Assembly: GCF_023055435.1 (NCBI RefSeq)
Contig: NW_025963879.1
Location: 24,924,001-24,988,000 of the forward strand
Source: Haliotis rufescens
Taxonomy: Eukaryota
Length of the DNA: 64,000 nucleotides
Direction of reading: 5' to 3'
Positions 3,955 through 64,000 of the stretch are shown piece after piece. The translations under genes were made by a program, and so were the position numbers. Position 1 is the stretch's first letter, and the number at the start of each line of letters is the position of its first letter. A model generated the notes under the pieces. It had not been told where the DNA came from. It ran no database searches and saw nothing but the letters and a program-made list of their open reading frames with translations.

Positions 3955-6341
3955 ATGGCGACCTCCCAGAAGCTAACAGAACACTTCCTGACATGCACGA
4001 TATGTACAGAGGTGTTTGACAAGCCCTGTACACTTGTATGTAATCACACCTTCTGTCGTAAATGTGTCGTCAACTACACCAAAACCAGACCAGAAGCCAT
4101 TAGTGCCAAGTCTCTCCTGTGTCCATTCTGCAGGAAGATGACGAAAGTGTCTGCCCCTGAGAGACCAGTGGAGGAGTGGGCGGATGACGTCAAGCCTAGC
4201 TTTGTCATCCAGGGACTTTTGGACTCGTTTGGCCCCGGATCTAAAGGTGAGCGTTTGTGGTTTGTATGAATATAAATGTTATTTCGAAGCAGGTAACTCC
4301 ACACCTGATTGGATAATAGGAATGTGTGTTGAGTGAGAAGATATTTTGTAAGGTTTCAAAATTTATCGAAAGTCATTTATTAAGTTGTGTTCGTGTACAC
4401 TGTTTTAACAAGTAACAACGATTATCCGGACATGATTCGAAAGGGAGATGGTCTAAGGTCTATCTCAGACACAATTGCCATTTTTCTCTGAAATCTATAT
4501 CTATATGGCGATTTCTATCAGTGAGACAAATCCAATGTTATTTACATAATTTTTCACATTACGTGGTATTGGGATGTTATTGATGCATGTTGTCTCACCC
4601 AAGTGAGTGATGTACATGATATGCCACATGAAGTTCTGTAATAGATTGTGATGTAGAACTGTTAATATCTCTTCATGATTACATTCCTATTTCAGATACG
4701 ACTCACTGTAGTTATTGTAAGGAGGAAGGGGAGACAACTCCAGCTACATCTTGGTGCTCTGTTTGTGACGACGCACTCTGTGAACGATGTATTCGAGTAC
4801 ACAGACGAATTCCATCTTTCCGTCACCATGACGTAGTTGACCTGTCTGGAGAGACAAAGGTTCGCGTCAAGAGAAAGGTCATGTGTAAACTTCACAAAGA
4901 TGAAAATATCAAATATATTTGTAAAGATTGTAAAACAGCAGTTTGTCAAAAATGCTGCACTATCCATCACAGGAAATGTGACTTGGTTGTTGAAATTGAG
5001 TCGGAGATTCCTTCCATGAAAACTGAGCTGAGAAGGAATAAAGAGGTATTGTTGAACAAACAAGACGAGATGAAAACACATATTGGTAAACAAACCTCCA
5101 AAGTCAATGAAGCATTAACGCTTTACTTACAAATAGAATCGAATATCAAATCTGCAAGTGTCAAAACAATTGAGGTGATCAAAGTCAAGGAACGGACACT
5201 TTTGGCTGAACTGAAAGAAATGTCTGACAAACACATTGGAGAACTGAAAGCAGACATAAAGTCAGGTGAGATGTCAGTACAGGTGTACCAACAACAGGCA
5301 GAGCTGATAGACCAGACTCTACAATCTGAGTGTGACATGGGTGTGTATGAGATGTACCAGGGATGTGAGGCCGTTGATGTGGAGGCTGTCGGAGTCGCAG
5401 ACGTGAAGGAGAAGGGAAGAATAGCCAGGATCATGTTCAGACAGGACACGGACAAGCTGAGTAGAGCACTGGACGATCTACAGCTGGGTGAGATAGACGT
5501 CCTGTATGAGGGTGTGCTGGACCTGAAGGCGACTCTTGTGGTACAGGACACCATTAACACCAGAGTAGCAGGGGATATGTTAAGAGAAGACATCTGTGAC
5601 GGGGTAGTGGTAGTGGTGAATGGTACAGACACAGTGGTAGTCACAGACATCTACAACAACAGTGTGAAGTCCTTCTACACCAGGAACAAGCAGCCGTGTC
5701 ACAGCAGGCTCAGTGTGGGTGGTAATCCGTATGGTATAACAAAGTTGAAGGACAACCAGGTGGCTTTCACTATGCTGGGTACCAGACAGATTGTAACAGT
5801 ACAAGTCAACCCTGACCTGGAGCTGCTGTCAACCATCACAACCAGCAAACAGTACTGGGGTATAACGTCTCTGACACCATCAACACTAGCAGCAAGTTCC
5901 CACTCCCCTCCCTGTGTTGATATCCTGGATATGGCGGGACACGTGCTGAGGTCAATTTGTCCAGGCCAACCTAGTAGATACATCTTGAAGTATCCCTTCT
6001 TCCTTTGTACCACGAGGACAGGAAACATCCTGGTGTGTGACAGTGGATCCACGTGTGTCGTGTGTCTGACTCCCGAGGGAGATGTGGTGTTCACATACAG
6101 CCCTACAGGAGACACAGCACTGAAGGATGCACTTGGTATCACAAGCACGAGCACAGGCGACATCCTGGTAGCAGACCAAACACTACACAGAGTCCTCCAT
6201 CTGACTGAGTCAGGACAATTTGTTAGAAACATACTGACATCACGGGATGGTGTCCAGAGTCCACGTGGAGTGTGTGTTGGTGGGCGTGGCCGCATGTACG
6301 TATGTACACCAGATGGAGTGAAGGTATTTACATGTAAGTGA
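3955..6341 (+). CDS. TRIM-NHL-like E3 ligase copy 1 (RING, B-box1, B-box2, coiled coil, NHL-like propeller), 645 aa
   Basis: Exons 3955-4246 and 4696-6341; phase-1 GT-AG intron (aaag|gtgagc ... tttcag|atacg). C3HC4 RING CTIC..CNHTFCRKC..CPFC; B-box1 CSYC..CSVCDDALCERC..H..H; B-box2 CKLH..CKDCKTAVCQKC..HH; NHL-type blades (PYGIT, GNILVCD, GDILVAD, PRGVCV). Confidence 0.93.
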
Positions 6342-8740
6342 ATGAACATGTCGCAATCCTCCTTTCAATGAACTGTAGTCACGTGTGAGTTGAGGATTTA
6401 GGTTTGGATATGTATCATTGTGTATTTACCTTTAAGCACATTTCACTGTGTTTTAGTAAAATCACATTATATATTAATGTTTAATCACTCATCTGAGCTT
6501 TGCTATTTGAATGTGATGAATGAAGATTTAATCATACATGGTCTGTAAGTGTACATATTATTTTTGTAATCTCAATAGCAAGACACGGTTATTCACTACC
6601 GCTTCAGATCTAATCTGAACATGTTTTCCATTTTATGTATTACAAACTTCGATTCGATAAAATGTCATTATATCGAATACCAGATCCTCCGCATGATGTG
6701 TTTTTCATGTTTGTAACCACAATGCGAGTGTTACATGGAGCTATTCCTTCTGTTCGACACTCTTTTGTTACAGATGTATATATCAAGCGCCGTTTTACTA
6801 TTTATTCCTGATTTCATATCAATAATTCATTTAATGATACCCCAAAATGAATTATTGTGAATTATCATCATGCCAGTGTTTTATGGATCTATTCGTGATA
6901 TCCGATATATCTGTGTAATATTTACATGACAGCCAGACTTATAGGCATTCAATGACCACAATGATCCGGGCGACAGTTGCTGAGTTCGACAGGTTAATCG
7001 TGGCTGCACACCGCCAAACCAGTCAACGTGAAAAGCCCGTATTAAGCAGCCATTGTGACCAACCGATCTCCAATTTAGTCACCTTGTATAACATGGGTAC
7101 AAATCAAGGGACGAATTTAAGTACAATGTCAGCCTCAGTGTTCAACAGAATCACCTGAAACTACTCTTGTACATATATACATTAAATGTACTGATTGTTT
7201 TTGTAACTTCACCTAATGTTTCGCGTTATGAAGCACAGAACCAACAGCTCTCTCGTTTCTGTGGTGAGGACTTGTCACATTCATTTGGCTTCTGAGCGGT
7301 CGAAGGGAGATAAATCGTGATTGGATGTTTTGTGAAGCGCAATAAAATACAGTGAACGAAAGTACACGTGAAGCCAGGAACATTTTATCACATAGAGTGT
7401 TGTTTATGTTTTGTGAAGCGCAATAAAATACAGTGAACGAAAGTACACGTGAAGCCAGGAACATTTTATCACATAGAGTGTTGTTTATGTGTGTTGCAAA
7501 TAAATGAATAGACTGTAATTCTGTTTGTTGGTCAACAATGCGATATTCAAGCTGCATGTATGACGGTAAATAATCGAGTATGAACGCGAGAAAGCAGTGA
7601 TTGACATCACGAGCAACATACCAAGTCGTTGGGTCACGATGACACTGTATCAACCAGGTGAAGGAGTCTGACCATTTGGTCACCTCGTACGACAAGCACA
7701 GGTTGCTGAGGACCTATTCTAGCCCGGAATCCCCACGTGGAGACCTTCATTGGTTGCTTGTTGTTCACCGCCTGTGCGATAAAGACGCACAAAGGCCTTT
7801 CCATATTCATAGGAAATCTCTGCTTGAAGCAGAGTCGACTGTATGATTCCGACTATATCATGAGCAAGTCTTTATTGAACACCATCAAATTGTGATGATA
7901 CCAGGTGTTCGCTAAAAGGTGAGCGTAGCCTGTCCCACCGGCGGCTCCCATTACCAGCAAGTCAGTTGTTCACCTGAAAAGACACTGAAACATGTGGTTC
8001 AAGTCAAAACAGGGAATAACATCTGACATCAGTTTCACCATGTTAGTTTTGCCGACGTGGGCAACCTAAGCATGCTATACAATCAATAGAAGAAAGTGAA
8101 CTATTCTAGAGCTGAGGGGACTGTTCTCGACCTGTGAACCGTTGTTTTGTACCCAGTACTAAGTGGCATTCGCAAATAATCAATAGATATCACATATATT
8201 GATACTAACACATTACATTACACATACTATTCTAATACACAAAGCAAAAAAACAGGAACCCTGGTTACAAAAGGAAAACTCCTGGTAGATTTGACGTATC
8301 AAAGTAATCAGTAGGCCATTGTGGGACATTGCTATGTCCATCCAACACTAACAGGCATACGTCACCCATGCCGCGGTCAACGTGACTTCAAGTATATTGA
8401 ATTGTGTACCATCTGAGAAGAAGATCGCGGATTTATAAAAAAAATTCTTGGGTAGGAAATTTGAGTCTGAAGACACACGTTAATACTACGTCACATATTG
8501 TAGGTACAGTACTGGTATGCCCGTTGATGTCAGATCAGCGTTTATGAGATATACAAATGGCCTATAAAATGTCATCAAATACTCAGGATTCCTAAGGTGG
8601 GCTTTGTTAATACCTCAGACCTGGGATAAGTGCAGATAAGGTATGAAACATCAGTCAAAGTCTATCATACCTTTTACTATATACTTATATTTTTAAGTTT
8701 GGCACGTATACTAGTTGTTTCTTATTTTTATGCCATAGTC

Positions 8741-9277
8741 AGAGCAGAGCAGCATCATCTGTTGTCCGGGGACTGGTCAAATGACGCATCTGAGTCTTCC
8801 CCAGAGGTCATCATTGTACTGTTACAGGATATGAGGGGGAGGAGCAGAGCAGCATCACCTATTCTCCGGGAACTGGTCAAATGACGCATCTGAGTCTTCC
8901 CCAGAGGTCATCATTGTACTGTTACATTATATGAGGGGGAGGAACAGAGCAGCATCACCTATTGTCCGGGGATTGGTCAAATGACGCATCTGAGTCTTCC
9001 CCAGAGGTCATCCTTGTACTGTTACAGGATATTGGGGGAGGAGCAGGGCAGTCCCACCTATTGTACGGGGACTGGTCAAATGACGCATCTGAGTCTTCCC
9101 CAGGGGTCAACATTGTACTGTTACAGGATATGAGGGGGAGGAGCAGAGCAGTACCACCTATTGTCCGGGGACTGGTCAAATGACGCATCTGAGTCTTCCC
9201 CAGGGGTCAACATTGTACTGTTACAGGATATGAGGGGGAGGAGCAGAGCAGTACCACCTATTATCCGGGGACTGGTA
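8741..9277. repeat. 100-bp satellite, ~5 units
   Basis: Same unit as 1-1512. Confidence 0.95.
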
Positions 9278-9387
9278 ATTGGCTTGTGGAGAAATCTAAC
9301 TCCCAAACATTTCTGAAATTTATGGGTCATCTTGATGCACATGTCAGACACCACGTCCCTTGTTTTCACGTGGGTCTCTTGAACCAT

Positions 9388-10080
9388 TACATCACGTAGC
9401 TCACCTTTGGTTACATAAATTAGCTTACCTTTGGTTACGTCAAGTAGCTCACCTTTGGTTACATGAATTAGCTTACCTTTGGTAACGCAAAGTGGCCCAC
9501 CTTTGGTTATATCACGTAGCTCACCTTTGGTTACATAAATTAGCTTACCTTTGGTTACGTCTAGTAGCTCCCCTTTGGTTACGTCACGTAGCTCACCTTT
9601 GGTTACATAAATGAGCTTACCTTTGGTAACGTCAAGTGGCCCACCTTTGGTAACATCACGTAGCTCACCTTTGGTTACATTCATTAGCTTACCTTGTGTT
9701 ACGTCAATAAGCTCACCTTTGGTTACATCACGTAGCTCACCATTGGTTACATACATAAGCTTACCTTTGGTTACGTCACGTAGCTCACCTTTGGTTACAT
9801 AAATGAGCTTACCTTTGATTACATCAAGTAGCCTACCATTGCTTTCATCACGTAGGTCACCTTTGGTTACATAAATTAGCTTACCTTTGGTAACGTCAAG
9901 TAGCCCACCTTTGGTTACATGAATTAGCTTACCTTTGGTAACGCCAAGTGGCCCACCTTTGGTAACATAAATGAGCTCACCTTTTGTCACATAAATTAGC
10001 TTACCTTTGATTACATCAAGTAGCCTACCATTGGTTTCATCCAGTAGCCTACCTGTGGTTACATAAATTAGCTTACTTAC
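9388..10080. repeat. 24-bp minisatellite with 48-bp dimer structure
   Basis: gttacatcacgtagctcacctttg alternates with gttacataaattagcttacctttg. Confidence 0.93.
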
Positions 10081-10779
10081 ATATAATTTAACATTCCGTT
10101 GTCTAATATGCATACGAGTAGTAGTAGTTGTAGTAGCAGTGGTGGTAGTAGTAGTAGTAGTCGTGGTATGCCATAAAGAGACCTGTTCAAGTCGCAAACA
10201 GAAGGTATAAAACATCCATAATAATGAGAGACATACGTCAGTAGTCAATCATATCATATCGCGTGCCAGTGAAGAGAACGAAGAAGAGGAAAAAAAATGA
10301 TTCTAGTTATGATGTGAGCTGAATTATCTGTCGTGTTGCAATCAGCTCATTAGATATTCCAGTTGTAAGGCTATTGCAGTCATGCAGTCGGGATGGAATA
10401 AGTGATCAAACGAGGCTGGCAGTATCATCTCAGGTGAGGAGATGGCGTATAGATCCAATGTGATGAGATGACAAATTATTATTATTATTCATAATGATTC
10501 AAGATGCAGTTTGGTTGCTTAGTAATGTACACGTATCTACATGTTTTATATCCGAGTGAGTGAATGCTGTTTAACACCACAGTCAGCAATATGCTACTTA
10601 TAGCACAACGACCTGTGAAGAAGTGTTGGGCTAAACAGTGCTTGGTGGCATCAGCAAAGAACCAGGTCTTCGGGCACGATGAAACAATCTCATCATGGGA
10701 TCTTGAAGAAGGTATGAACGAACACGTGACAGGTGACCTCACAGCGGTGTTTGCAATGACAAAGGACCATAAGAACTCA

Positions 10780-13326
10780 CTCTAATGCTTTAACCACCAA
10801 CACTGTTGCATAGAAGACCCACACTAATGCAACAGCAACCAACACTAATGCATCAGACACACACACTTATACATTAGCAACCAACACCAATGTATTAGCA
10901 ACCGACACTAATGCATTTATAACTCACACTTATGCATCAGTAACCCAAATTAATGCCTTAGCAACCCACACAAGTGCATAAGCAACCCACATTAATGCAT
11001 CAGCAGCCAAAACTAATGCATCAGCAACCCAAACTAATATATTAGCAACCAACACTAATACATTAGCAACCCACACTTATGTATTAGCAACCGACACTAA
11101 TGCACCAGCAACCAACACTAATGCATCAGCAACCCACACTAATTCATTTGCAACAAACCCTTATGCATTAGCAGCCCCCACTAATGCATCACCAACCCTA
11201 ACTAATACATTAACAACCGACACAGATGCATTATCAACCAACACTCATGCATCAGCAACCATGACTTATGCATCAGCAACCAAGACTTATGCTTAAGCAA
11301 CCCACACTAATGCATTGGCAACCCACACAAGTGCATTAGCAACCACACTAGTTCACCAGCAACCCAAACTAAAGCATCAGAAGCTCACACTAATGTATTA
11401 GGAACCCACACTTAAGCATCAGACACACACACTAATACATGAGCAACCAACACTCATGTATTAAAAGCCTACACTTAAGCATCAGGCACACACACTAATA
11501 CATTAGCAACCAACACAGATGCATTATCAACCCATACTAATGCACCAGCAACCCACACAAGTGCATAAGCAACCCACATTAATGCGTCAGCAGCCAAAAC
11601 TAATGCATCAGCAACCCAAACTAATATATTAGCAGACAACACTAATACATTAGCAACCCACACTTATGTATTAGCAACCAACACTAATGCATCAGCAACC
11701 CACACTTATTGATTAGCAACAAACCCTAATGCATTAGCAGCCCCCACTAATGCTTCACCAACCCTAACTAATACATTACCAACCAACACTGATGCATAAC
11801 AACCCACACCATTGCATCTGTAACCCACACAAATGCATTGGCAACCCACACAAGGGCATTAGCAACCACACTAATGCGCATCAGCAACTCACACTAATGC
11901 ATCAGACACCAACACTACTTCAGCAACCAACACTCATGCATAAGGAACCCACACTAAAGCATCAGGCACACACACTAATACATTAGCAACCAAAACTCAT
12001 GTATTAGGAGCCATCACTAAAGCATCAGGCACACACACTAATACATTAGCAACCAAAACTCATGTATTAGAAACCTACACTAAAGCATCAGGCACACACA
12101 CTAATATCTAGCAACCAACACTAATGCATTTATAGCCAACTATTATGCTTCAGTTAGCCAAACTAAAGCCTTAGCAACCCACGCAAGAGCATTAGCAGCC
12201 CACACTAATGCATCAGCAGCCAACACTAATGCATCAGCAACCCAAACTTATATATTAGCAACCAACACTAATACATTAGCAACCAGCACTTATGTATTAG
12301 CGACCGACACTTATGCATTAGCAGCAAACCCTAATGCATTAGCAACCCACACTAATGCATTAACAACCCACACTAATGTATCAGCGACCAATACAAATGC
12401 ATAAGGCACCAACACTAATACTTCAGTGAGTGAGTGAGTGAGTATGGTTTTCGATGGTCTTCGGCGTGACGAGCGGACGCTTTAACCACTAGGCTACCCG
12501 ACCGCCCCACTAATACTTCAGCAACCAACACTAATATATTAGGAACCCACACTAAAGCATCAGACACACACACTAATACATTTGCAACCAGCACTCATGT
12601 ATTAGGAACCCACACTAAAGCATCAGGCACACACACTAATACATTAGCAACCACAACTCATGTATTAGGAGCCTTCACTAAAGCATCACGCACAAACACT
12701 AATACATTAGCAACCAAAGCTCACGTATTAGGAGCCTTCACTAAAGCAGCAGGCACACCCACTAATACTTTACTAACCAACACTCATGCGTTAGCAACCC
12801 ACACTAAAGCATCAGGCACTAACACTGATACATTAGCAGCCAACACTCGCGCATTAGGAGCCTTCACTAAAGCACCAGGCGCACACACTAATACATTAAC
12901 AACCAACACTCATGCGTTAGGACTCACACTAATGCAGTAGACACACACTAATACATTAGCAACCAACACTCATATATAAGGAACCCACACTAAAGCATCA
13001 GACACACACACTTATACATTAGCAACCAAAACTCATCCATCAGCAGCCCACACTAAAGCATCAGACACACACACTTATACATTAGCAACCAAAACTCATG
13101 TATTAGGAACACACACTAAAGTATCAGACACACACACTAATACATTACCAACCAACACTCATCCATCAGCAGCCCACACTAAAGCATCAGACACACAGAC
13201 TTATACATTACCAACCAATACTCATGTATTAGGAATCCACACTAAAGCATCAGACACACACACCTATACATTAGCAACCAACACTCCTGTATTAGGAACC
13301 CACACTAAAGTATCAGGCACACACAT
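10780..13326. repeat. 21-bp satellite (cactaatgcattagcaacc[c/a]a), degenerate, with 42-bp dimers
   Basis: About 2.5 kb of 21-bp periodic sequence with palindromic core ctaatgcattag. Confidence 0.93.
12427..12507 (-). mobile_element. Internally deleted tRNA-derived SINE (ACTC-tail family A) inserted in the satellite
   Basis: SINE head gggcggtcgggtagcctagtggttaaag and (ACTC)n tail; 14-bp TSD cactaatacttcag at 12413-12426 and 12508-12521. Confidence 0.85.
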
Positions 13327-13573: not shown

Positions 13574-13583
13574 GGGAATTCCC
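13574..13583. promoter_or_regulatory. Palindromic NF-kB-type site GGGAATTCCC upstream of TRIM copy 2
   Basis: Exact GGGRNNYYCC consensus; homologous sites at 38817 and 58422. Confidence 0.5.
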
Positions 13584-15488: not shown

Positions 15489-17937
15489 ATGGCGACCTCC
15501 CAGAAGTTAACAGAACACTTCCTGACATGCACGATATGTACAGAGGTGTTTGACAAGCCCTGTACACTTGTATGTAATCACACCTTCTGTCGGAAATGTG
15601 TGGTCAGCTACACCAAAACCAGACCAGAAGCCATCAGTGCCAAGTCTCTCCTGTGTCCATTCTGCAGCAAGATGACGAAAGTGTCTGCCCCTGAGAGACC
15701 AGTGGAGGAGTGGGCAGATGACGTCAAGCCCAGCTTTGTCATCCAGGGACTCTTGGACTCGTTTGGCCCCGGATCTAAAGGTGAGAGTTTGTGGTTTGTA
15801 TGAATATAAATGTTATTTCGAAGCAGGTAACTCCACACCTGATTGGATTATAGGAATGTGTGTTGAGTGAGAAGATATTTTGTAAGGTTTCAAAATGTAT
15901 CGAAAGTCATTTATTAAGTTGTTTGTAGACTGTATGTAGACTATGAAATCGTATCGTGTACGCTGTTTTAACAAGTAACAACGATTATCCGGACATGATT
16001 CGAAAGGGAGATAGTCTAAGGCCTATCTCAGACACAATCGCTATTTTCTTCTGAAATCTATATGGGGATTTCTATCAGTGAGACAAATCCAATGTTATTT
16101 ACATACTTTTTCACATTACGTGGTATTGGGATGTTATTGATGCATGTTGTCTCACACGTGTGAGTGATATGCCACATGAAGTTCTGTAACAGATAGTGAT
16201 ATAGCACTGTTACTATCTCTACGTGATTACATTCCTATTTCAGATACGACTCACTGCAGTTATTGCAAGGAGGAAGGGGAGACAACTCCGGCTACATCTT
16301 GGTGCTCAATTTGTGACGACGCACTCTGTGAACGATGTATACGAGTACACAGACGAATTCCATCTTTCCGTCACCATGACGTAGTTGATATGTCTGGAGA
16401 GACAAAGGTTAGGGTCAAGAGAAAGGTCATGTGTAAAATTCACAAAGATGAAAGCATCAAATACATTTGTAAAGATTGTAAAACAGCTGTTTGTCAAAAA
16501 TGCTGCACTATCCATCACAGGAAATGTGACTTGGTTGTTGAAATTGAGTCGGAGATTCCTGCAATGAAAACCGAGCTGAGAAGGAATAAAGCGGATTTGT
16601 TGAAGAAACAGGACGAGATGAAAACACATGTTAAAAAACAAACCTCAAAAGTCAATGAAGAATTTACACTTTACTTACAAATAGAATCGAATATCAAGTC
16701 TGCAGGTCTCAAAGCAATAGAGATGATCAAAGTGAAGGAACGGAACCTTCTGGCTGAACTGAAAGCAATGTCTGACAGACACATTGGAGAACTGAAGGCA
16801 GACATAAAGTCAGTTGAGATGTCAGTACAGATGTACCAACAACAGGCAGAGCTGATAGACCAGACTCTACAATCTGAGTGTGACATGGGTGTGTATGAGA
16901 TGTACCAGGGATGTGAGGCCGTTGATGTGGAGGCTGTCGGAGTCGCAGACGTGAAGGAGAAGAGAAGAATAGCCAGGATCATGTTCAGACAGGACACGGA
17001 CAAGCTGAATAGAGCACTGGACGATCTACAGCTGGGTGAGATAGACGTCCTGTATGAGGATGTGCTGGACCTGAAGGTTACTCCTGTGTTACAGGACACC
17101 ATTAACCTGCTGGACCTGAAGGCTACTCCTGTGTTACCGGACACCATTAACGTCGGAGTAGCAGGAGATACATATGGAGCAAACCTCATGGACGTGAAGG
17201 TGTTAGTGGTGAATGGTACAGACACAGTGGTAATCACAGACATCATCAACAACAGTGTGAAGTCCTTCTACACCAGGAACAAGCAGCCAGGTCACAGCAG
17301 GCTCAGTCTGGGTGGTAGTCCGTATGGTATAACAAAGTTGAAGGACAACCAGGTGGCTGTCACTGTGCCGGATACCAGAGAGATTGTAACAGTACAAGTC
17401 AACCCTGACCTGGTGCTGCTGTCAGCCATCACAACCAGCAAACAGTACCGGGGTATAACGTCTCTGACACCATCAACACTAGCAGCAAGTTCCATCTCCC
17501 CTCCCTGTGTTGATATCCTGAATATGGCGGGACACGTGCTGAAGTCGATTCGTCCAGACCACCCTAGAAGAAACATCTTGAAGAATCCCAACTTCCTCTG
17601 TACCACGAGGACAGGAAACATCCTGGTGTGTGACCGGGGATCCAAGTGTGTCGTGTGTCTGACTCCCGAGGGAGATGAGGTGTTCACCTACAGCCCTACA
17701 GGAGACACAGCAATGGGGTGGCCACACGGTATCACAAGTACCAGCACAGGCGACATCCTGGTGACAGACAACCATCTACACAGAGTCCTCCATCTGACTG
17801 AGTCAGGACAATTTGTTAGAAACATACTGACATCACAGGATGCCGTCCAGAGTCCACGTGGAGTGTGTGTTGGTGGGCGTGGCCGCATGTACGTGTGTAC
17901 AGCATATGGCGTGCAGGTATTTACATGCTGTAAATGA
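15489..17937 (+). CDS. TRIM-NHL-like E3 ligase copy 2, 661 aa
   Basis: Exons 15489-15780 and 16244-17937; same phase-1 intron and domain motifs as copy 1. Confidence 0.93.
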
Positions 17938-18975
17938 GTTAACATGTCGCAATCATCCTTTCAATCAACTGTAGTCACGTGTGAGTTGAGGATTTATGTG
18001 TTTTGATATGTATCATTGTGTATTTACCTTGAAGCACATTTCCCTGTGTTTTAGTAAAATCACATTATATATTAGTGTTGAATCACTCATCTGAGCTTTG
18101 CTATTTGAATGTGATGAATTAAGATTTAATCATACATGGTCTGTAAGTGTACACATTATATTTGTAATCGCAATAGCAAGACACGGTTATTCACTACTGC
18201 TTCAGATCTTATCTGAACATCTTTTCCATTTTGTTTATAACAAAGTTCGAATGTAAGTGGATTTGATAAAATGTCATTATATCGAATACCAGATCCTCCG
18301 CATGATGTGTTTTTCATTGGTGCAACCACTATGACAGTGTAACGGAGCTATTCCTTCTGTGTTATAACTAGAAGTGGTGTGAGCTGAGATGGTGTAGGAT
18401 GGATATTTACATGACAGTAATCCTTGCTTGCTATGCTGAGGACAATAAGCAGCAATGTTTTGTTACAGCTTTACACACGGGGCGCCGTTTTACTATTTAT
18501 TCCTGATTTATAACACTGTTTTGTTACAGACTTATAGACATTCTTCCGACCACATAGATCCGGGCGACAGTTGCACTGCTGTGTCACTGTGACCTGCAAA
18601 GGAGGCCCGCGAGAGTCTGGCGTTTCTGAGTTCTACGTTCGAGAGGCTGATCATGTGACATGCGGTACGGAAATCGCCGAAACAGTCAAAGTGAAAAGCC
18701 CGTATTAAGCAGCCGTTGTGACCAACCGATAACCAATTTAGTCACCTTGTATAACATGTGTAGGAATCAAGGGCCGATGTCAGCTAAGTACAATGTCAGC
18801 CGCAGTGTTCAACAGAATCGCGTGAAACTACTATTGTACATATATAAATTAACCCGTTTCTCTCTCGTTTCTGTGGTGAGGACTTCTTACATTCACTTGG
18901 TAACTGAGAGGTCGGAGGGAGATAAATCGTGATTGGATGTTTTTCAAGGCGCAATAAAATATAGTGAACGAATAT

Positions 18976-19143: not shown

Positions 19144-19391
19144 GTGAACGAATATACACGTGAAGCCAGGAACATTTGATCATAGAACGCTGTTTATGTG
19201 TGTTGCAAATAAATTAATCCACTGTAATGCTATGTTTGTTGGTCAACACCGCGATATTTAAGCTGCATGTATATCTCGGTAAATAATCGAGAATGAACGC
19301 GAGAAAGCAGTGACTGACATCACGAGCAACATCCAAAGTTGCTGGGTCAAGAGGACACTGTATCAACCAGGTGACGGAGTCTGACCATTTG

Positions 19392-20490
19392 ACAGCAGCT
19401 AGGGTATAACTCCCATGTTGCCCAACAAACCCTTTGCCAGCAGCTCGGATGTAACTCCTTTGTTGCACAGTAAACTCCTTGCCAACAGCTAGGGTATAAC
19501 TCTCATGTTGCCCAATAAACCCCCTGCCAGCAGCTAGGGTGTAACTGCTTTGTTGCACAGTAAACTCCTTGCCAACAGCTAGGGTATAACTCTCATGTTG
19601 CCCAATAAACCCCTTGCCAGCAGCTCGGGTGTAAATCCTTTGTTGCACAGTAAACTCCTTGCCAACAGCTAGGGTATAACTCTCATGTTGCCCAATAAAC
19701 CCCTTGCCAGCAGCTGGGGTGTAACTCCTTTGTTGCACAGTAAACTCCTTGCCAACAGCTAGGGTATAACTCCCATGTTGCTCAATAAACCCCTTGCCAA
19801 CAGCTAGGGTATAACTCCCATGTTGCCAAATAACCCCTTGCCAGCAGCTCGGGTGTAAATCCTTTGTTGCACAGTAAACTCCTTGCCAACAGCTAGGGTA
19901 TAACTCCCATGTTGCCCAATAAACCCCTTGCCAGCAGCTGGGGTGTAACTCCTTTGTTGCACAGTAAACTCCTTGCCAACAGCTAGGGTATAACTCCCAT
20001 GTTGCCCAATAAACCCCTTGTCAGCAGCGAGGGTGTAACTCACATGTTGCCCAGGTAACCACTTGCCAGCAGCTGGGGTTTAACTCACATGTTGCCCAGG
20101 TAACCACTTGCCAGCAGCTGGGGTGTAACTCACATGTTGCCCAGGTAACCACTTGCCAGCAGCTGGGGTGTAACTAACATGTTGCCCAGGTAACCACTTG
20201 TCAGCAGTTGGGGTGTAACTCACATGTTGCCCAGGTAACCACTTGCCAGCAGCTGGGGTGTAACTCACATGTTGCCCAGGTAACCACTTGCCAGCAGCTG
20301 GGGTGTAACTTATATGTTGCCCAGGTAACCACTTGCCAGCAGCTGGGGTGTAACTCACATGTTGCCCAGGTAACCACTTGCCAGCAGCTGGGGTGTAACT
20401 TACATGTTGCCCAGGTAACCACTTGCCAGCAGCTAGGGTTTAACTCACATGTTGCCCAGGTAACCACTTGCCAGCAGCTGGGGTGTTGTC
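19392..20490. repeat. 45-bp minisatellite (90-bp dimer to ~20030, then monomer)
   Basis: Unit cagcagctggggtgtaactcacatgttgcccaggtaaccacttgc; the left part alternates two variants. Confidence 0.95.
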
Positions 20491-21030
20491 ACATGTTGCT
20501 AGCGGTTGTAACCAGACGTTGTAGTATGCTCACACTGATTCTCTCCAACAAGTCTGTGATTTGTCAATGTTCCCAGGTGCTCTACCCTGAGCAGTATCAG
20601 GTTTCAGTGTTGTCACCTTTGGGTTAGTTCTTTGTTGTTTTACATCCATTTACCTCTCTTATAGCTCCCGTGTATTACATTTTTTACAAGATGACTAATA
20701 TGCTGGTAATGAAATATGTTACAACTTGTACTCTTTTTTACGAATAAATATGTTTACTGGATGACATTGTTAATTATATGACCATGTGACTTCATGCTGT
20801 TAAGATAGACTCCAATGTCAGTTGAATGGCTTATAACCCTCCTTGTTCGATTCAGCAAATAGCAAAACGTTTAAGACCCGCATCACTCCAAACATCCCAA
20901 CACGTTAAGTCGACATGCCTTGATACAGCTGGAATACTGGTAAAACTGGCGTTAAACCAAAGTCACTCCCTAGAATAATCAACCCTTGAAACCTAGACTT
21001 TATACACGACTATATATTTACCCAACACAC

Positions 21031-24266: not shown

Positions 24267-24349
<83 letters not shown>

Positions 24350-40989: not shown

Positions 40990-43465
40990 ATGGCGACCTC
41001 CCAGAAGTTAACAGAACACTTCCTGACATGCACGATATGTACAGAGGTTTTTGACAAGCCCTGTACACTTGTATGTAATCACACCTTCTGTCGGAAATGT
41101 GTGGTCAACTACACCAAAACCAGACCAGAAGCCATCAGTGCCAAGTCTCTCCTGTGTCCATTCTGCAGGAAGATGACGAAAGTGTCTGCCCCTGAAAGAC
41201 CAGTGGAGGAGTGGGCGGATGACGTCAAGCCTAGCTTTGTCATCCAGGGACTCTTGGACTCGTTTGGCCCCGGATCTAAAGGTGAGAGTTTGTGGTTTGT
41301 ATGAATATAAATGTTATTTCGAAGCAGGTAACTCCACACCTGATTGGATTATAGGAATGTGTGTTGAGTGAGAAGATATTTTGTATGGTTTCAAAATTTA
41401 TCGAAAGTCATTTATTAAGTTGTTTTTAGACTGTATGTAGACTATGAAATCGTATCGTGTACACTGTTTTAACAAGTAACAATGATTATCCGGACATGAT
41501 TCGAAAGGGAGATGGTCTAAGGTCTATCTCAGACACAATCGCTATTTTCTTCTGAAATCTATATGGGGATTTCTATCAGTGAGACAAATCCAATTATTTA
41601 CATACTTTTTCACATTACATCGTATTGGGATGTTATTGATGCATGTTGTCTCACCCGTGTGAGTGATATGCCACATGAACTGCTGTAATAGATAGTGATA
41701 TAGAACTGTTAATATCTCTACATGATTACATTCCTATTTCAGATACGGCTCACTGCAGTTATTGCAAGGAGGAAGGGGAGACAACTCCGGCTACATCTTG
41801 GTGCTCTGATTGTGACGACGCACTCTGTGAACTATGTATACGAGTACACAAACGAATTCCATCTTCCCGACACCATGACGTAGTTGACCTGTCTGGTGAG
41901 ACAAAGGTTAGGGTCAAGAGAAAGGTCATGTGTAAAATTCACAAAGATGAAAACATCAAATACATTTGTAAAGATTGTAAAACAGTTGTTTGTCAACAAT
42001 GCTGCACTATCCATCACAGAAAATGTGACTTGGTTGTTGAAATTGAGTCGGAGATTCCTGCAATAAAAACCGAGCTGAGAAGGAATAAAGAGGATTTGTT
42101 GAAGAAACAGGACGAGGTGAAAACACATGTTAAAAAACAAACCTCAAAAGTCAATGAAGAATTAACACTTTACGTACAAATAGAATCGAATATCAAGTCT
42201 GGAAGTCGCAAAGCAATAGAGATGATCAAATTCAAGGAACAGAACCTCCTGGCTGAACTGAAAGAGATGTCTGACAAACACATTCGAGAACTGAAGGCAG
42301 ACATAAAGTCAGTTGAGATGTCAGTACAGATGTACCAACAACAGGCTGAGCTGATAGACCAGACTCTACAATCTGAGTGTGACATGGGTGTGTATGAGAT
42401 GTACCAGGGATGTGAGGCCGGTGATGTGGAGGCTGTCGGAGTCTCATACGTGAAGGAGAAGGGAAGAATAGCCAGGATCATGTTCAGACAGGACACGGAC
42501 AAGCTGAGTAGAGCACTGGACGATCTACAGCTGGGTGAGATAGACGTCCTGTATGAGGATGTGCTGGACCTGAAGGCTACTCCTGTGTTACAGGACACCA
42601 TTAACGTGCTGGACAGGAAGGCTACTCCTGTGTTACAGGACACCACTAACGTGCTGGACCTGAAGGCTACTCCTGTGTTACAGGGCACCATTAACACCAG
42701 AGTAGCAGGAGATGTACGTCGAGCACACTCCACTGACGTGACGGTGTTAGTGGTGAATGGTACAGACACAATGGTAGTCACAGACTATAGGAACAACAGT
42801 GTGAAGTCCTTTTACACCAGGAACAAGCAGCCAGGTCACAACAGGCTCGTCCGTGGGGTATAACAGTGTTGAAAGACAACCAAGTGGCTGTCACTGTGCT
42901 GGACACCAGTCAGATTGTAACAGTACAAGTCAACCCTGACCTGGTGCTGCTGTCAACCATCACAACCAGCAAACAGTACTGGGGTATAACGTCTCTGACA
43001 CCATCAACACTAGCAGCAAGTTCTAACTCCCCTCCCTGTGTTGATATCCTGGATATGGCGGGACACGTGCAGAGGTCAAATTTTCCAGGCCAACCTAATA
43101 GATACTTCTTGATGAAACTCTCCTTCCTCTGTACCACGAGGACAGGAAACATCCTGGTGTCTGACGTGGGATCCAAGAGTGTCGTGTGTCTGACTCCCGA
43201 GGGAGATGAGGTGTTCACCTACAGCCCTACAGGAGACACAGAAATGGTGCATCCACGTGGTATCACAAGCACCAGCACAGGCGACATCCTGGTGACAGAC
43301 CTCAATCTTGACAGAGTCCTCCATCTGACTGAGGCAGGACAGTTTGTTAAAAACATACTGACATCACAGGACGGCGTCAAGCGTCCACATGGTGTGTGTG
43401 TTGGTGGGCGTGGCCGTATGTACGTGTGTTTGTCAGATACGGTGAAGGTATTTACATTGAAGTGA
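40990..43465 (+). pseudogene. TRIM-NHL-like copy 4, frameshifted (or a truncated 470-aa RBCC-only gene)
   Basis: Exon 40990-41281 and exon 2 from 41743. A 13-bp deletion (agtgtgggtggtc relative to copy 5) after 42848 gives TAA at 42861-42863. The rest of the propeller is open in another frame to 43465. Confidence 0.88.
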
Positions 43466-48131: not shown

Positions 48132-48168
<37 letters not shown>

Positions 48169-49195
48169 CAGTAGTAGTAGTAGTAGTAGAAGTCGTTGTA
48201 TGCCATAAAGAGACCTGTTCAAGTCGCATACAGAAGGTATAAAACATACATAATAATGAGAGAAATACGTCAGTAGTCAATCATATCATATCACGTGTCT
48301 TGAGCCAGTGAAGAGAACGAAGAAGAGGAAAAATAATTATTTTTTATGTTTTATATCCGAGCGAGTGAATGCTGTTTAACGCCACAGTCAGCAATATGCT
48401 ACTAAAAGCACAACGTGAAGAAGTGTTGGGCTAAACAGTGCTTGGTGGCATCAGCAAAGAACCAGGTCGTCGGGCACGATGAAACAATCTAAGCATGGGA
48501 TCTTGAAGAATGTATGAAAGAACACGTGACAGGTGAGCTCACAGCGGTGTTTCCAATGACAAAGGACCATAAGAACTCACTCTAATGCATTAACCACCAA
48601 CACTATTGCACAATCGACCCACACTTATGCATCAGTAACCAACACTAATGCATCAACAGCCAACACTTATACAACAGCAACCCACACTAATAATTCAGCA
48701 ACCAACACTAATGCATTAGGAACCCACACTAAAGCATCAGGCACCCACACTAATACATTAGCAACTAACACTCATGCGTTAGGAACCCACACTAAAACAT
48801 GATGCACATACACTAATACATTAGCAACCAACACTCATGCATTAGCAGCCCACACTAAAGCATCAGGCACCCACACTGATACATTAGCAACTAACACTAA
48901 TACTTTTACAACCCACACTGATGCATTAGCAACCAACACTTGTACATTAGCAACCCACACTAATACATTATCAACCCACACTAATACATTTCAACCCACA
49001 ATAATACATTTCAACCCACACTAATACATTATTAACCAACACTTATACATTATCAACCCACACTTATACATTAGCAAACCACACTAATACATGAGCAACC
49101 CACACTAATGCACCAGAAACCAACAGATGCATTAGCAACCCACAATTATGCATTAGCAACCTACACTAATGTATTAGCAACCCACACCAACCCAC
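47010..49195. repeat. Satellite cassette: 100-bp (~4 units), 24-bp array, (AGT)n, spacer, 21-bp array
   Basis: Same order as in unit 1. Confidence 0.88.
47966..48115 (-). mobile_element. tRNA-derived SINE family A inserted in the (AGT)n microsatellite
   Basis: Homologous to 18976-19143; empty site at ~10117-10165. Confidence 0.9.
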
Positions 49196-51886: not shown

Positions 51887-54332
51887 ATGGCGACCTCCCA
51901 AAAGTTAACAGAACACTTCCTGACATGCACGATATGTACAGAGGTGTTTGACAAGCCCTGTACACTTGTATGTAATCACACCTTCTGTCGGAAATGTGTC
52001 GTCAACTACACCAAAACCAGACCAGAAGCCGTCAGTGCCAAGTCTCTCCTGTGTCCATTCTGCAGCAAGATGACGAAAGTGTCTTCCCCTGAGAGACCAG
52101 TGGAGGAGTGGGCGGATGACGTCAAGCCTATCTTTGTCATCCAGGGACTCTTGGACTCGTTTGGCCCCGGATCTAAAGGTGAGAGTTTGTGGTTTGTATG
52201 AATATAAATGTTATTTCGAAGCAGGTAACTCCACACCTGATTGGATTATAGGAATGTGTGTTGAGTGAGAAGATATTTTGTATGGTTTCAAAATGTATCG
52301 AAAGTCATTTATTAAGTTGTTTGTAGACTGTATGTAGACTATGAAATCGTATCGTGTACACTGTTTTAACAAGTAACAACGATTATCCGAACATGATTCG
52401 AAAGGGAGATAGTCTAAGGTCTATCTCAGACACAATCGCTATTTTCTTCTGAAATCTATATGGGGATTTCTATCAGTGAGACAAATCCAATGTTATTTAC
52501 ATACTTTTTCACATTACGTCGTATTGGGATGTTATTGATGCATGTTGTCTCACACGTGTGAGTGATATGCCACATGAAGTTCTGTAATAGATAGTGATAT
52601 AGAACTGTGACTATCTCTACATGATTACATTCCTATTTCAGATACGACTCACTGCAGTTATTGCAAGGAGGAAGGGGAGACAACTCCGGCTACATCTTGG
52701 TGCTCTGTTTGTGACGACGCACTCTGTGAACGATGTATACAAGTACACAGACGAATTCCATCTTTCCGTCACCATGACGTAGTTGATATGTCTGGAGAGA
52801 CAAAGGTTAGGGTCAAGAGAAAGGTCATGTGTAAAATTCACAAAGATGAAAACATCAAATACATTTGTAAAGATTGTAAAACAGCTGTTTGTCAAAAATG
52901 CTGCACAATCCATCACAGGAAATGTGACTTGGTTGTTGAAATTGAGTCGGAGATTCCTGCAATGAAAACCGAGCTGAGAAGGAATAAAGAGGATTTGTTG
53001 AAGAAACAAGACGAGATGAAAACACATGTTAAAAAACAAACCTCAAAAGTCAATGAAGAATTAACACTTTACTTACAAATAGAATCGAATATCAAGTCTG
53101 CAAGCCTCAAAGCAATAGAGATGATCAAAGTCAAGGAACAGAACCTTCTGGCTGAACTGAAAGCGATGTCTGACAGACACATTGGAGAACTGAAGGCAGA
53201 CATAAAGTCAGTTGAGATGTCAGTACAGATGTACCAACAACAGGCTGAGCTGATAGACCAGACTCTACAATCTGAGTGTGACATGGGTGTGTATGAGATG
53301 TACCAGGGATGTGAGGCCGGTGATGTGGAGGCTGTCGGAGTCGCAGACGTGAAAGAGAAGGGAAGAATAGCCAGGATCATGTTCAGACAGGACAAGGACA
53401 AGCTGAGTAGAGCACTGGACGATCTACAGCTGGGTGAGATAGACGTCCTGTATGAGGATGTGCTGGACCTGAAGGCTATTCCTGTGTTACAGGACACCAT
53501 TAACGTGCTGGACCTGAAGGCTACTCCTGTGTTACAGGACACCATTAACGTCAGAGTAGCAGGAGATACATATTGGACCAGCCCCATTGACGTGACGGTG
53601 TTTGTGGTGAATGGTAAAGACACAGTGGTAGTCACAGACTACAACAACAACAGTGTGAAGTCCTTCTATTCCAGGAACAAGCAGCAAGGTCACAGCAGAC
53701 TCAGTGTGGGTGGTCGTCCGTGGGGTATAACAAAGTTGACGGACAACCAGGTGGCTGTCACTGTGCCGTCAGCCACTCAGATTGTAACTGTGCAAGTCAA
53801 CCCTGACCTGGTGCTGCTGTCAGCCATCACAACCTGCAAACAGTACTGGGGTATAACGTCTCTGACACCATCAACACTAGCAGCAGGTTCCTACTCCCAT
53901 CCCTGTGTTGATATCCTGGGTATGACGGGACACGTGCTGAGGTCAATTTGTCAAGGCCAACCTAGTAGATACATCTTGAAGAAACCCTCCTTCCTCTGTA
54001 CCACGAGGACAGGAAACATCCTGGTGTGTGACCGGGGATCCGAGTGTGTCGCGTGTCTGACTCCCGAGGGAGATGTGGTGTTCACCTACAGCCCTACAGG
54101 AGACACAGCCCTGAAGTATCCATACGGTATCACAAGTACCAGCACAGGCGAGATCCTGGTGACAGACAGCCATCTACAAAGAGTCATCCATCTGACTGAG
54201 TCAGGACAGTTTGTTAGACACATGCTGACATCACAGGATGGTGTCAAGTATCCACGTGGAGTGTGTGTTGGTGGGCGTGGTCGTATGTACGTGTGTATGT
54301 CAGATGAAGTGAAGGTATTTACATATAAGTGA
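51887..54332 (+). CDS. TRIM-NHL-like E3 ligase copy 5, 660 aa
   Basis: Exons 51887-52178 and 52642-54332; intact frame and motifs. Confidence 0.93.
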
Positions 54333-57104: not shown

Positions 57105-58065
57105 GAGCAGAGCAGTACCACCTATTGTCCGGGGACTGGTCAAATGACGTATCTGAGTCTTCCCCAGAGGTCATCATTGTACTGTTACAGGATATAAGGG
57201 GGAGGAGCAGAGCAGTACCACCTATTGTCCGGGGACTGGTCAAATGACGCACCTGAGTCTTCCCCAGGGGTCATCATTGTACTGTTACAGGATATAAGGG
57301 GGAGGAGCAGAGCAGCACCACCTATTGTCGGGGGACTGGTAATTGGCCTGTGGAGAAATCTAACTCCCAAACATTTCTGAAGATTATGGGTCCACTTGAT
57401 GCAAATGTCTGACACCACGTCCCTTGTTTTCACGTTGGTCTCTTGAACCATTACATCAAGTATCTCAACTTTGGTAAAATCAAGTAGCTTACCTTTGGTT
57501 ACATCACGTAGCTCACCTTTGGTTATATAAATTAGCTTACCTTTGGTTACACTAATACATTAGCAGACAACACTCATGCGTTAGGAACCCACACTAAAGC
57601 ATCAGATACACACACTAATACATTAGCATTAAACCCCCATGTATTAGGAACCCACACTAAAGCATCATGCAACCACACTATTACTTTAACAACCAACACT
57701 TATGCATTAGGAACCCACACTAAAGCATCAGACACACACACTAATACATTAACAACCAACACTCATGCGTTAGGAACCCACACTAAAGCATCAGGCACAT
57801 ACACTAATACATTAGCAACCAACACTAATGCATTAGCAGCCCACACTAATACATTATCAACCCACACTAATACATTCTCAACCCACACTAATACATTAAC
57901 AACCAACGCTAATGCATTAGCATCCCACACTGATGCATTAGCTACCCACACTAATTAATCAGCAACCAACACTAATGCATTAGCAACCCACACTAATACA
58001 TTAACAAACCACAATTATGCATTAGCAACCTACACTAATGTATTAGCAACCCACACCAACCCACA
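57105..58065. repeat. Satellite cassette: 100-bp (~2 units), 24-bp, 21-bp
   Basis: Same three satellites; the 24-bp array is fused directly to the 21-bp array at ~57550. Confidence 0.88.
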
Positions 58066-62882: not shown

Positions 62883-63064
62883 ATGACGACCTCCAAGAAG
62901 TTAACAGAAGACTTCCTGACATGCACGATATGTACAGAGGTGTTTGACAAGGCCTGTACACTTGTATGTAATCACACCTTCTGTCGGAAATGTGTCGTCA
63001 ACTACGCCAAAACCAGACCAGAAGCCATCAGCCATCTTGGACTCGTTTGGTCCCGGATCTAAAG
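62883..63064 (+). pseudogene. TRIM-NHL-like copy 6, RING exon disrupted (exon 2 lies beyond the window)
   Basis: Exon is 182 bp versus 292 bp in the other copies. The net 110-bp deletion removes the last RING Cys pair and frameshifts to TAA at 63060-63062. The donor aaag|gtgaga is retained. Confidence 0.88.
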
Positions 63065-63108
63065 GTGAGAGTTTGTGGTTTGTACGTATATAAGTGTGGT
63101 TCCACAAC

Positions 63109-63250
63109 TGAGTGAGCAAGTATGGTATACGGCCTTTTCACCAATATTCCAGCAATATCACGGCGGGGGACACCAGAAATTTGGTTTCACACATTGTGCC
63201 CATGCTTGGAATCGGCGTGACGATCGAACGCTTTAACCACTAGGCTACAG
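63109..63250 (-). mobile_element. Degenerate family A SINE in the copy 6 intron (same site as in the copy 3 intron)
   Basis: gagtgag...caatattccagcaatatcacggcgggggacaccag...ctttaaccactaggctac. Confidence 0.75.
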
Positions 63251-64000
63251 CTCTGCCCCGAGAGGTACCATAACATTTGATATGAATATAGAAACACGTT
63301 ATGTTTAAGGTTTCTGTGCTATATCGAAAGTCATCTATAGGTTGTTTGTAAGGTTTGTGTTGAATATGAAATCATATCGTGTACACGTACAGTGTTAACA
63401 AGTGGTAGCGATCCTCCAAACCTGATGATACAGGTGACATGACATCCGGTCGACGTCTATTACGCTGAGGATAAGAACGTGTGTAAAGTAAAGAAGAAAG
63501 TTTTATAGTTTCTGTGGATTGTGTAAACCTGTTGATGATGTTGTTTGAAGGGTTTGTGTACAAAATGAAATCCTATTGTGTACATGTGCTTCATGAGTAA
63601 CACCGATATGATCTAAGGTCTATCTCAGACACAAACGCTGTCTTTTCCATGATCTATGTGACGAAATTAACCAGTGCAACAAATCCAGTGCTATTTACAT
63701 CATATTTCACGTTAGCACTTATTGAAATGTTTGTGATGCATATTTTCTCATGATGTTCATGAGTTCATGATGCGCCACATGAAGTTCTATATGGAACATA
63801 ATTGCATGGCGCCGTGGTTCTTTTGGTTTTGGTTTGAGAAAGTTACATGGGATGAGTAGTTGGAAAGATGTAAACAAACTTCTAAAAGAAACTTTTTCTT
63901 TATCTCACAAATGTATTATGATATGCTTACATACAAAGTACATACATAACTATTTTTTAAAACATTCCTAGCTGTAAATTATTACACCAAACATTTTTAT

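What the first reader, a model, noticed from the sequence alone, without database searches (positions are those of the whole stretch)
3955..63300. Patchwork sharing between paralogs suggests gene-conversion shuffling of modules and loops
Seen: relationships change along the gene. Intron type groups copies {1,2,4,5} (449-463 bp) against {3,6} (shared SINE insertion). The coiled coil groups {1,3} (IPSM..THIGK..NEAL..KSGEM) against {2,4,5} (IPA..THVKK..NEE..KSVEM). Within the propeller: TRVAGD {1,4}; ANLxDVKV {2,3}; DVTV, TDY and PWG {4,5}; LSAITT and CDRG {2,5}; GDEVF {2,4}; terminal VFTLK {3,4}. A 3' flank block (~18327 and ~43851) is shared only by {2,4}. Inference: no single tree fits, so ectopic conversion or unequal crossover mixes loop variants combinatorially, and the broken copies may serve as sequence donors, as pseudogenes do in avian Ig diversification.
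Basis: partly seen in the sequence, partly recalled or inferred. Interest (0 to 1): 0.7.

Follow-up and report, generated by a model that had tools for sequence, protein, structure and literature searches.

The report
Abalone TRIM genes shuffle selected loops
A tandem array of abalone TRIM ubiquitin-ligase genes is a genuine patchwork, likely made by slow germline recombination between copies while selection diversifies the predicted target-binding face of their propeller domain, and no sign was found of antibody-style copying from broken genes.

Summary
The window holds five full copies (copy 4 frameshifted) and the start of a sixth copy of a two-coding-exon RING/B-box/coiled-coil/NHL gene of abalone. 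At least 31 close copies lie in three clusters on this contig. The patchwork is real. PHI, decay of linkage against a single-tree simulation, triplet tests and a partition test all reject one tree, and the decay also shows at synonymous and non-coding sites and among H. rubra paralogs. Module swaps are clear. A second force was missed: dN/dS is 1.9-2.9 on the top-face loops of the six-bladed propeller, against 0.48 on the bottom loops. The pseudogene-donor (avian Ig) idea is unsupported: 18 of 31 copies have full open frames, lesions are private, there is no AID-motif bias, one copy kept its loops across two species, and copy 6 has no propeller (its B-box is fused to a PABP fragment). It works like fish finTRIM and NLR-B30.2 families, with NHL in place of B30.2. 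The scan noted conversion in other TRIM genes of this genome before.

The parts
3955..6341 (+). TRIM copy 1: RING exon 3955-4246, intron 449 bp, B-box/B-box/coiled-coil/NHL exon 4696-6341; open frame, 645 aa
15489..17937 (+). TRIM copy 2: exons 15489-15780 and 16244-17937; open frame, 661 aa
30209..33492 (+). TRIM copy 3: exons 30209-30500 and 31802-33492, long-type intron of 1301 bp; open frame, 660 aa
   Evidence: a contig of a probable RNA run skips exactly these 1301 bases, GT..AG (may come from a paralog)
40990..43465 (+). TRIM copy 4: exons 40990-41281 and 41743-43465; 13-nt frameshifting deletion after about 42848 (blade 1-2 loop)
   Evidence: one contig of run X3 spans the junction with no difference
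51887..54332 (+). TRIM copy 5: exons 51887-52178 and 52642-54332; open frame, 660 aa
62883..64000 (+). Copy 6: RING exon with a 110-nt internal deletion (62883-63064) and start of a long-type intron. Its second exon lies just beyond the window: B-box 1 fused to a poly(A)-binding-protein fragment, no NHL
5013..5219 (+). Tract of codons 204-272 in which copy 1 matches copy 3 at 25 of 25 informative sites against copy 2 (copy 3 counterpart about 32119-32325)
   Evidence: G=37.9 vs window null maximum 29.5
5541..6338 (+). Six-bladed NHL propeller of copy 1; its b-c and d-a (top-face) loops carry the hypervariable codons
5574..5612 (+). Blade-1 entry loop haplotype of copy 1 (10 rare linked substitutions, one synonymous) shared with L004 and, at 9 of the 10, with L006, whose B-box and coiled coil group with L009
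42905..43249 (+). Propeller tract of copy 4 (codons 460-574) matching L003 at 31 of 31 informative sites against L020; codons 575-603 share rare variants with L013 of the oppositely oriented cluster
42561..42695 (+). 45-bp in-frame linker repeat between coiled coil and propeller: 3 units here, 2 in copies 2 (17063-17151), 3 (32620-32711) and 5 (53460-53551), 1 in copy 1
18327..18496 (+). 3' flank block, also at about 43851-44010; likely the ancestral state, lost in copies 1, 3 and 5

Best explanation
This is a tandem family of abalone TRIM genes (RING, two B-boxes, coiled coil, six-bladed NHL propeller) whose copies are mosaics, likely made over many generations by germline non-allelic recombination (gene conversion and unequal crossover), while positive selection likely drives the top-face loops of the propeller that are predicted to bind the target. 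Shown: gene anatomy, fold, incompatible histories along the gene, dN/dS above 1 on top loops and purifying selection on RING and B-boxes. Inferred: misaligned neighbours exchange whole modules (breaks often near the B-box/coiled-coil and coiled-coil/propeller linkers, where a 45-bp repeat changes copy number) and shorter propeller tracts. New loop residues arise mostly by point mutation and are then spread and recombined between copies. Each protein would bind a different foreign or altered target with its propeller face and ubiquitinate it with a conserved RING, as a cytosolic sensor or restriction factor. Broken copies are ordinary young birth-and-death casualties that took part in exchange like any other copy.
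For: PHI p=0.001 for 5 window copies and for 27 family copies, p=0.004 on synonymous sites of the family. r2 between paralogous variants falls from 0.19 (1-3 bp) to 0.05 (over 250 bp), while 200 single-tree simulations with site-specific rates stay flat at 0.073. The same decay appears at synonymous sites (p=0.005), short introns (p=0.046), 3' flanks (p=0.014) and among 10 H. rubra proteins (p=0.001). 77 of 5313 triplets, involving 14 of 23 copies, exceed the maximum of 100 single-tree simulations. Contiguous partitions fit better than all 40 random codon partitions, both in RBCC (-4966 vs -5042+/-12) and inside the propeller (-5596 vs -5672+/-15). Two-copy variants within 15 bp share the same pair 16 of 179 times, against 11 of 5050 beyond 600 bp. 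RING exons of copies 2 and 3 are 97% identical while their introns align only over about 90 bp at 75%. dN/dS among 16 open-frame copies: RING 0.27, B-boxes 0.29, whole propeller 1.41 [1.10-1.85], top loops 2.94 [2.00-4.48] by pattern or 1.94 [1.37-2.82] by model strands, bottom loops 0.48 [0.20-1.43]. The top face is the ligand face in Brat (PMC4015489, passages).
Against: Synonymous sites inside the propeller alone do not reject one tree (PHI p=0.11; 0 of 5313 third-position triplets above the null maximum), so some loop sharing may be convergence or multi-base mutation. Only 1 of 253 pairs has a perfectly identical run above the null 95% level, so recent long conversion tracts are rare. The pattern-based loop set was chosen after I had seen the alignment (the strand-based set is mechanical and gives the lower figure). 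Strands also give 1.21 [0.82-1.78] and the coiled coil 0.97. Three of the 16 'open' copies have a doubtful start or splice site (L006, L007, L013). Conversion and crossover cannot be told apart from one haplotype. No ligand, ligase activity or immune role was tested.
Confidence: 0.75

Rival explanations
1. One duplication tree plus repeated convergent mutation at hypervariable loop codons and unequal retention of ancestral states; no exchange is needed.
For: Many cited motifs are ancestral or single-base changes. Propeller synonymous sites alone are not significant. The whole-gene tree is near star-like. Top loops are under strong selection, which favours convergence.
Against: Single-tree simulation with site-specific rates gives no distance decay. 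Decay is present in synonymous, intron and flank sites. Tracts with 25:0 and 31:0 informative sites, and a loop haplotype of about ten linked rare changes with a synonymous one, cannot plausibly recur. This rival may still explain part of the single-residue sharing in loops.
Confidence: 0.12
2. A programmed or somatic diversification system in which broken copies are templates for expressed copies, as in avian Ig gene conversion.
For: 13 of 31 close copies are disrupted or carry large deletions. Variation sits in binding loops. Broken copies take a slightly larger share of two-copy variants (0.48 vs 0.42).
Against: 18 of 31 copies have full open frames, so there is no single acceptor. The excess is not significant (p=0.09). 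Lesions are private. Broken copies show the same dN/dS profile as open ones (RING 0.29, top loops 3.12), so they died recently. WRC motifs are not hotter than other C/G sites (0.66 vs 0.60). One H. cracherodii protein matches L017 at 100%, 99% and 95% over three propeller thirds, so loops can stay put across a speciation. Copy 6 has no propeller.
Confidence: 0.03
3. The mosaics are assembly chimeras of collapsed repeats or haplotype switches.
For: No listed contig piece spans a whole copy. Two pairs of loci are 99.6% and 99.8% identical over 10 kb and may be uncollapsed haplotypes.
Against: Window copies differ by 9-13% in the propeller, and each carries many private substitutions. Shared tracts are mostly imperfect, whereas assembly switches would give perfect identity. 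The decay recurs in H. rubra proteins from another assembly. The copy 4 deletion is spanned by a short-read contig (X3 may be the assembled animal). The near-identical duplicates were dropped before the tests.
Confidence: 0.05

Closest known systems
Teleost finTRIM and btr TRIM-B30.2 families (PMC2657112, PMC3137616; passages read)
   Same: Large lineage-specific RBCC families with pseudogenes, positive selection on variable loops of the C-terminal domain and GARD breakpoints between paralogs.
   Different: The C-terminal domain here is an NHL propeller, not B30.2; B-boxes, coiled coil and propeller lie in one exon; RING and B-boxes are under purifying selection here; the host is a mollusc.
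Zebrafish NLR-B30.2 family (bioRxiv 10.1101/027151; passages read)
   Same: Conversion acting differently on different domains, combined with positive selection on the recognition domain.
   Different: NACHT/LRR proteins with B30.2; no ligase; conversion inferred there from synonymous divergence.
TRIM-NHL proteins TRIM2/3/71, Thin, Brat, Mei-P26 (PMC9634614 and PMC4015489, passages read)
   Same: RBCC plus a six-bladed NHL propeller; TM-score 0.74-0.84; top face defined by b-c and d-a loops.
   Different: Only 13-18% identical. Those are few-copy, conserved regulators with a fixed, often basic top face. Here at least 144 propeller matches occur in the genome and the top face is hypervariable (K+R 3-8, D+E 1-6 among 54 loop residues). 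No filamin domain was found by Pfam.
Avian immunoglobulin gene conversion (PMC10917233, abstract; PMC7986818, search listing)
   Same: Segments are copied between homologous genes and variation falls in binding loops.
   Different: There it is somatic, unidirectional from pseudogenes and AID-linked. Here most copies are open, no direction or AID signature is seen, and the record is germline.

Membership tests
TRIM/RBCC with NHL domain | N-terminal C3HC4 RING | tested here: met
   PF00097 and PF13445 above cutoff
TRIM/RBCC with NHL domain | One or two B-boxes after the RING | tested here: met
   PF22586 and PF00643
TRIM/RBCC with NHL domain | Coiled coil after the B-boxes | not tested
   Assigned from position and sequence only; no coiled-coil prediction was run
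TRIM/RBCC with NHL domain | Six-bladed NHL propeller at the C-terminus | tested here: met
   AlphaFold2 pLDDT 96.9, pTM 0.93; best solved matches are the NHL domains of Thin, TRIM2, TRIM71, TRIM3; PF01436
TRIM/RBCC with NHL domain | E3 ligase activity | not testable with these tools
   RING dN/dS 0.27 is indirect support only
RNA-binding TRIM-NHL regulators (Brat/LIN-41 type) | Conserved, positively charged top face | tested here: not met
   Top loops are the most variable part; K+R minus D+E runs from -1 to +6 among 15 copies. No electrostatic map was computed.
RNA-binding TRIM-NHL regulators (Brat/LIN-41 type) | Orthology to wech, TRIM71 or TRIM2/3 | not tested
   Database names ('wech-like', 'TRIM71-like', 'TRIM56-like') vary among near-identical proteins; identity to solved domains is 13-18%
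finTRIM / TRIM-B30.2 | B30.2 (PRY-SPRY) domain | tested here: not met
   No such Pfam hit; the fold is a propeller
finTRIM / TRIM-B30.2 | Multigene expansion with positive selection on C-terminal loops and recombination between paralogs | tested here: met
Avian Ig-type gene conversion | One or few expressed acceptors and an array of pseudogene donors | tested here: not met
   18 of 31 close copies have full open frames
Avian Ig-type gene conversion | Unidirectional transfer from pseudogenes | tested here: inconclusive
   No significant enrichment (p=0.09); direction could be argued for one tract only, which favours an open copy
Avian Ig-type gene conversion | AID-type hotspot signature | tested here: not met
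   Variants per site at WRC/GYW 0.66 vs 0.60 at other C/G in the propeller, 0.42 vs 0.39 in RBCC; a germline test only
Avian Ig-type gene conversion | Somatic occurrence in immune cells | not testable with these tools
   Only short contigs and small-RNA reads were available

The most novel reading that the evidence does not exclude
Abalones use the NHL propeller as a variable recognition module: a repertoire of more than a hundred TRIM ligases whose twelve top-face loops are diversified by selection and reassorted almost independently by short conversion tracts, giving a mollusc counterpart of TRIM5/finTRIM restriction factors, with occasional TRIMCyp-like capture of a new C-terminal domain (the PABP RRM fusion).
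Probability: 0.45. Interest if true: 0.7.

Novelty: new variant of a known kind. Interest (0 to 1): 0.45.

Why it matters
Recombination among tandem paralogs is ordinary. What is less ordinary is that a fold known mainly from conserved, few-copy RNA regulators here behaves like an arms-race recognition domain, with variation concentrated on the ligand face in two Haliotis lineages that expanded separately. If it binds pathogen molecules, it gives molluscs a defined, testable family of intracellular sensors and a candidate locus for disease-resistance mapping in farmed and endangered abalone. My literature searches returned no paper describing this family's evolution; the library lacks most subscription journals and I read no supplements.

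Tried and rejected
Single-sequence AlphaFold2 of the propeller failed (pLDDT 35.7); a 91-sequence alignment was used instead. AU tests between six segment trees rejected every foreign tree, but each segment's own ML tree is favoured by construction, so I rely on the random-partition test. A perfect-identity fragment test found 1 of 253 pairs above the null 95% level. A sliding linkage map gave low values near codons 360-385 but on few site pairs, so a breakpoint hotspot is not established. No RNA holder on record was listed. Contigs were too short to span a copy. The one small-RNA run laid gave 0 reads, which is no test. A 5' loose end from a probable RNA contig has no match in the window. A loop variant from other runs matched L016 with one mismatch, so it does not show a loop absent from this genome. 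No TRIM-RRM fusion appeared among the best 120 of 502 hits for the copy 7 fusion exon; only lengths of 107-342 aa were searched. No codon-model program (codeml, HyPhy) or GENECONV was available. Rows dropped: L012 (5' part missing) from all alignments; L025 and L026 (near-identical duplicates) from all tests; L005 from all but the flank display; L001, L010, L016 and L024 (one search kept L024). PHI and the two-copy variant counts kept L001 and L010, whose partly misaligned stretches add noise.
Full report
What is there. The window holds repeat units of 10.8-14.7 kb, each with a two-coding-exon gene: a 292-nt RING exon and a 1.65-1.72 kb exon for two B-boxes, a coiled-coil region and NHL repeats. 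Copies 1, 2, 3 and 5 have open frames; copy 4 has a 13-nt deletion; copy 6 begins at 62883 with a RING exon that lacks 110 nt. The closest database proteins are named from Haliotis rufescens, H. cracherodii, H. rubra and H. asinina. The propeller has 144 scored matches in the genome, a lower bound. Of these, 31 at 76-100% identity lie on the same contig in three clusters at about 23.8-24.0 Mb (minus strand), 24.8-25.0 Mb (plus, with the window) and 25.17-25.24 Mb (minus). I fetched the 26 outside the window and 13 more distant paralogs. A contig of a probable RNA run skips the copy 3 intron exactly, so at least one family member is likely spliced as modelled.

Checking the observation. Intron lengths, motifs and the flank block are as described. 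In the five full copies, 24 of 35 informative B-box and coiled-coil sites group {1,3}, 10 of them synonymous. In the propeller only 1 of 31 does, and 9 of the 10 possible splits occur; the six synonymous sites there each give a different split. But the family view weakens several examples. The {4,5} states DVTV, TDY and PWG are family-majority states, two of them also outgroup-majority, and the {2,4} flank block is present in many other copies and was likely lost in 1, 3 and 5. That loss still conflicts with the coding groups, because copy 5 goes with 2 and 4 in intron and coiled coil.

Is one tree rejected? Yes. PHI gives p=0.001 for the window copies (79 sites) and for 27 family copies, and p=0.004 on family synonymous sites; it gives p=0.073 for window synonymous sites, p=0.098 for the window propeller and p=0.11 for family propeller synonymous sites. 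Among 23 copies, r2 between variants falls from 0.19 at 1-3 bp to 0.10 at 10-30 bp and 0.05 beyond 250 bp. It falls faster in the propeller (0.051 by 60-120 bp) than in RBCC (0.092). Simulations on one tree with site-specific rates stay at 0.073. The decay holds for synonymous sites, 14 short introns and 16 flanks (p=0.005, 0.046, 0.014) and for 10 H. rubra proteins (p=0.001). In triplet scans, 77 of 5313 triplets exceed the maximum of 100 simulations; for the propeller alone 3 do, for third positions 1, for propeller third positions 0. Contiguous halves fit better than 40 of 40 random codon partitions in both RBCC and propeller. The 3' flank separates the 23.9-Mb cluster cleanly (bootstrap 100) while coding segments mix across clusters.

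Concrete events. Copy 1 matches copy 3 at 25 of 25 informative sites over codons 204-272 against copy 2. Copy 2 follows copy 5 over codons 72-393 (66:8) but not outside (31:51). Copy 4 matches L003 at 31 of 31 sites over codons 460-574 and shares rare variants with L013, of the inverted cluster, at 575-603. L006 pairs with L009 in B-box and coiled coil but carries copy 1's blade-1 loop haplotype. The 45-bp linker repeat varies from one to three units in the window, direct evidence of slippage or out-of-register exchange. Perfect long tracts are nearly absent, and one H. cracherodii protein is the near-identical counterpart of L017 in every segment, while the other three have no such counterpart and change best match along their length. 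Exchange is therefore slow and in part older than that species split. The ten H. rubra propellers group apart from the H. rufescens copies.

The second force. The model is a six-bladed propeller (pLDDT 96.9), closest to the NHL domains of Thin, TRIM2, TRIM71 and TRIM3. The b-c and d-a loops form the top face, which binds RNA in Brat (PMC4015489, passages). Pairwise dN/dS, which does not depend on a tree, is 0.27 in the RING, 0.29 in the B-boxes, 0.97 in the coiled coil and 1.41 in the propeller. It is 2.94 in 54 pattern-defined top-loop codons, and 17 of the 19 codons with five or more amino acids fall among them. With loops taken mechanically from the model it is 1.94 on top, 0.48 at the bottom and 1.21 in strands; site variability correlates between H. 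rufescens and H. rubra (rho 0.51). Most loop peptides are private to one copy, so mutation and selection make the variants and recombination redistributes them (inference).

Pseudogene donors. Eighteen of 31 copies have full open frames, three of them with a doubtful start or splice site. Lesions are private. Broken copies have the same dN/dS profile as open ones, their share of two-copy variants is not significantly raised, and AID-type motifs are not hotter. Chicken Ig conversion is somatic and pseudogene-templated (PMC10917233, abstract). A somatic process cannot be excluded from a germline assembly, but nothing here asks for one.

Mechanism and confidence. Shown: anatomy, fold, mosaicism, selection pattern. 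Inferred: germline misalignment with conversion and unequal crossover (about 0.85 for modules, 0.7 for loop-scale tracts) and a role as target-recognising ligases in innate defence (about 0.55, by analogy with finTRIM and NLR-B30.2; PMC2657112, PMC3137616 and bioRxiv 10.1101/027151, passages). PMC9634614 (passages) notes that NHL top faces differ among human TRIMs and that TRIM56 may act on influenza RNA synthesis. PMC8382680 and PMC9334734 (passages) list a B-box orthogroup expanded in bivalves and 22 TRIMs in Aplysia, without this analysis. The labels 'SINE', 'coiled coil', the WRC/GYW motif, the NHL repeat pattern and TRIMCyp are recalled and come from no call.

Verdict. The process is well known; its application to a positively selected NHL face in a large mollusc TRIM family did not turn up in my searches. 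New variant of a known kind, interest 0.45.

Noticed in passing
L008:3777-4600 (copy 6 exon 2), L008:5479-8077 (copy 7), L041:2551-5750: Three copies in this cluster have exon 2 cut after B-box 1 and joined in frame, at the same base, to an intronless poly(A)-binding-protein fragment (RRM4 and linker), 92% identical to each other. Copy 7 keeps an open RING/B-box/RRM frame of about 293 aa; the other two are frameshifted. It resembles a TRIMCyp-type retrocopy capture, probably decaying.
   Followed up: partly
P0004, P0014, P0121-P0126, P0129, P0132 against L002-L004, L009, copies 1 and 3: Public annotation lists 'isoforms' that join the RING exon of one copy to the second exon of another (for example the L002 RING on L004, whose own RING exon is frameshifted), and one joins copy 1 to copy 3 inside exon 2. 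The RING exon with its 5 upstream bases is 297 nt, so skipping or swapping it would keep the frame. Probably read mis-mapping between 97% identical exons, but cassette splicing is untested.
   Followed up: partly
L023/L025 and L024/L026: A block duplicated at a distance of 24,279 bp, 99.6% and 99.8% identical over 10 kb with identical coding sequences: a very recent duplication or uncollapsed haplotypes.
   Followed up: partly
window 3679-7409 and L005:4342-8071: Copy 1 has a 98.6% identical twin 49 kb upstream.
   Followed up: partly
window 1-1513, 8742-13325, 36776-38279, 47011-49187, 57105-58056: Each unit's spacer carries the same series of 100-bp, 24-bp and 21/63-bp tandem arrays in very different copy numbers; the spacer after copy 2 instead has 45-bp and 53-bp arrays (19389-21494). 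They could promote misalignment.
   Followed up: no
window 43851-44230: Copy 4's flank holds the ancestral block followed by the deletion-type sequence of copies 1, 3 and 5, as if made by an unequal crossover between the two flank types.
   Followed up: partly
codons 99-218 of all copies: Synonymous divergence in the B-box region is about twice that of the RING and propeller, both within the family (pS 0.16 vs 0.08) and against distant paralogs (0.56 vs 0.27-0.29); unexplained.
   Followed up: no
window 31700-34300: No listed run holds more than 0.37 of the sampled words of copy 3's second exon, which may mean strong differences between animals or fragmented contigs.
   Followed up: no
P0024, P0092: H. 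rubra records of this subfamily carry an Arf-type GTPase Pfam hit (PF00025) besides RING and B-boxes; fusion or annotation merge not checked.
   Followed up: no
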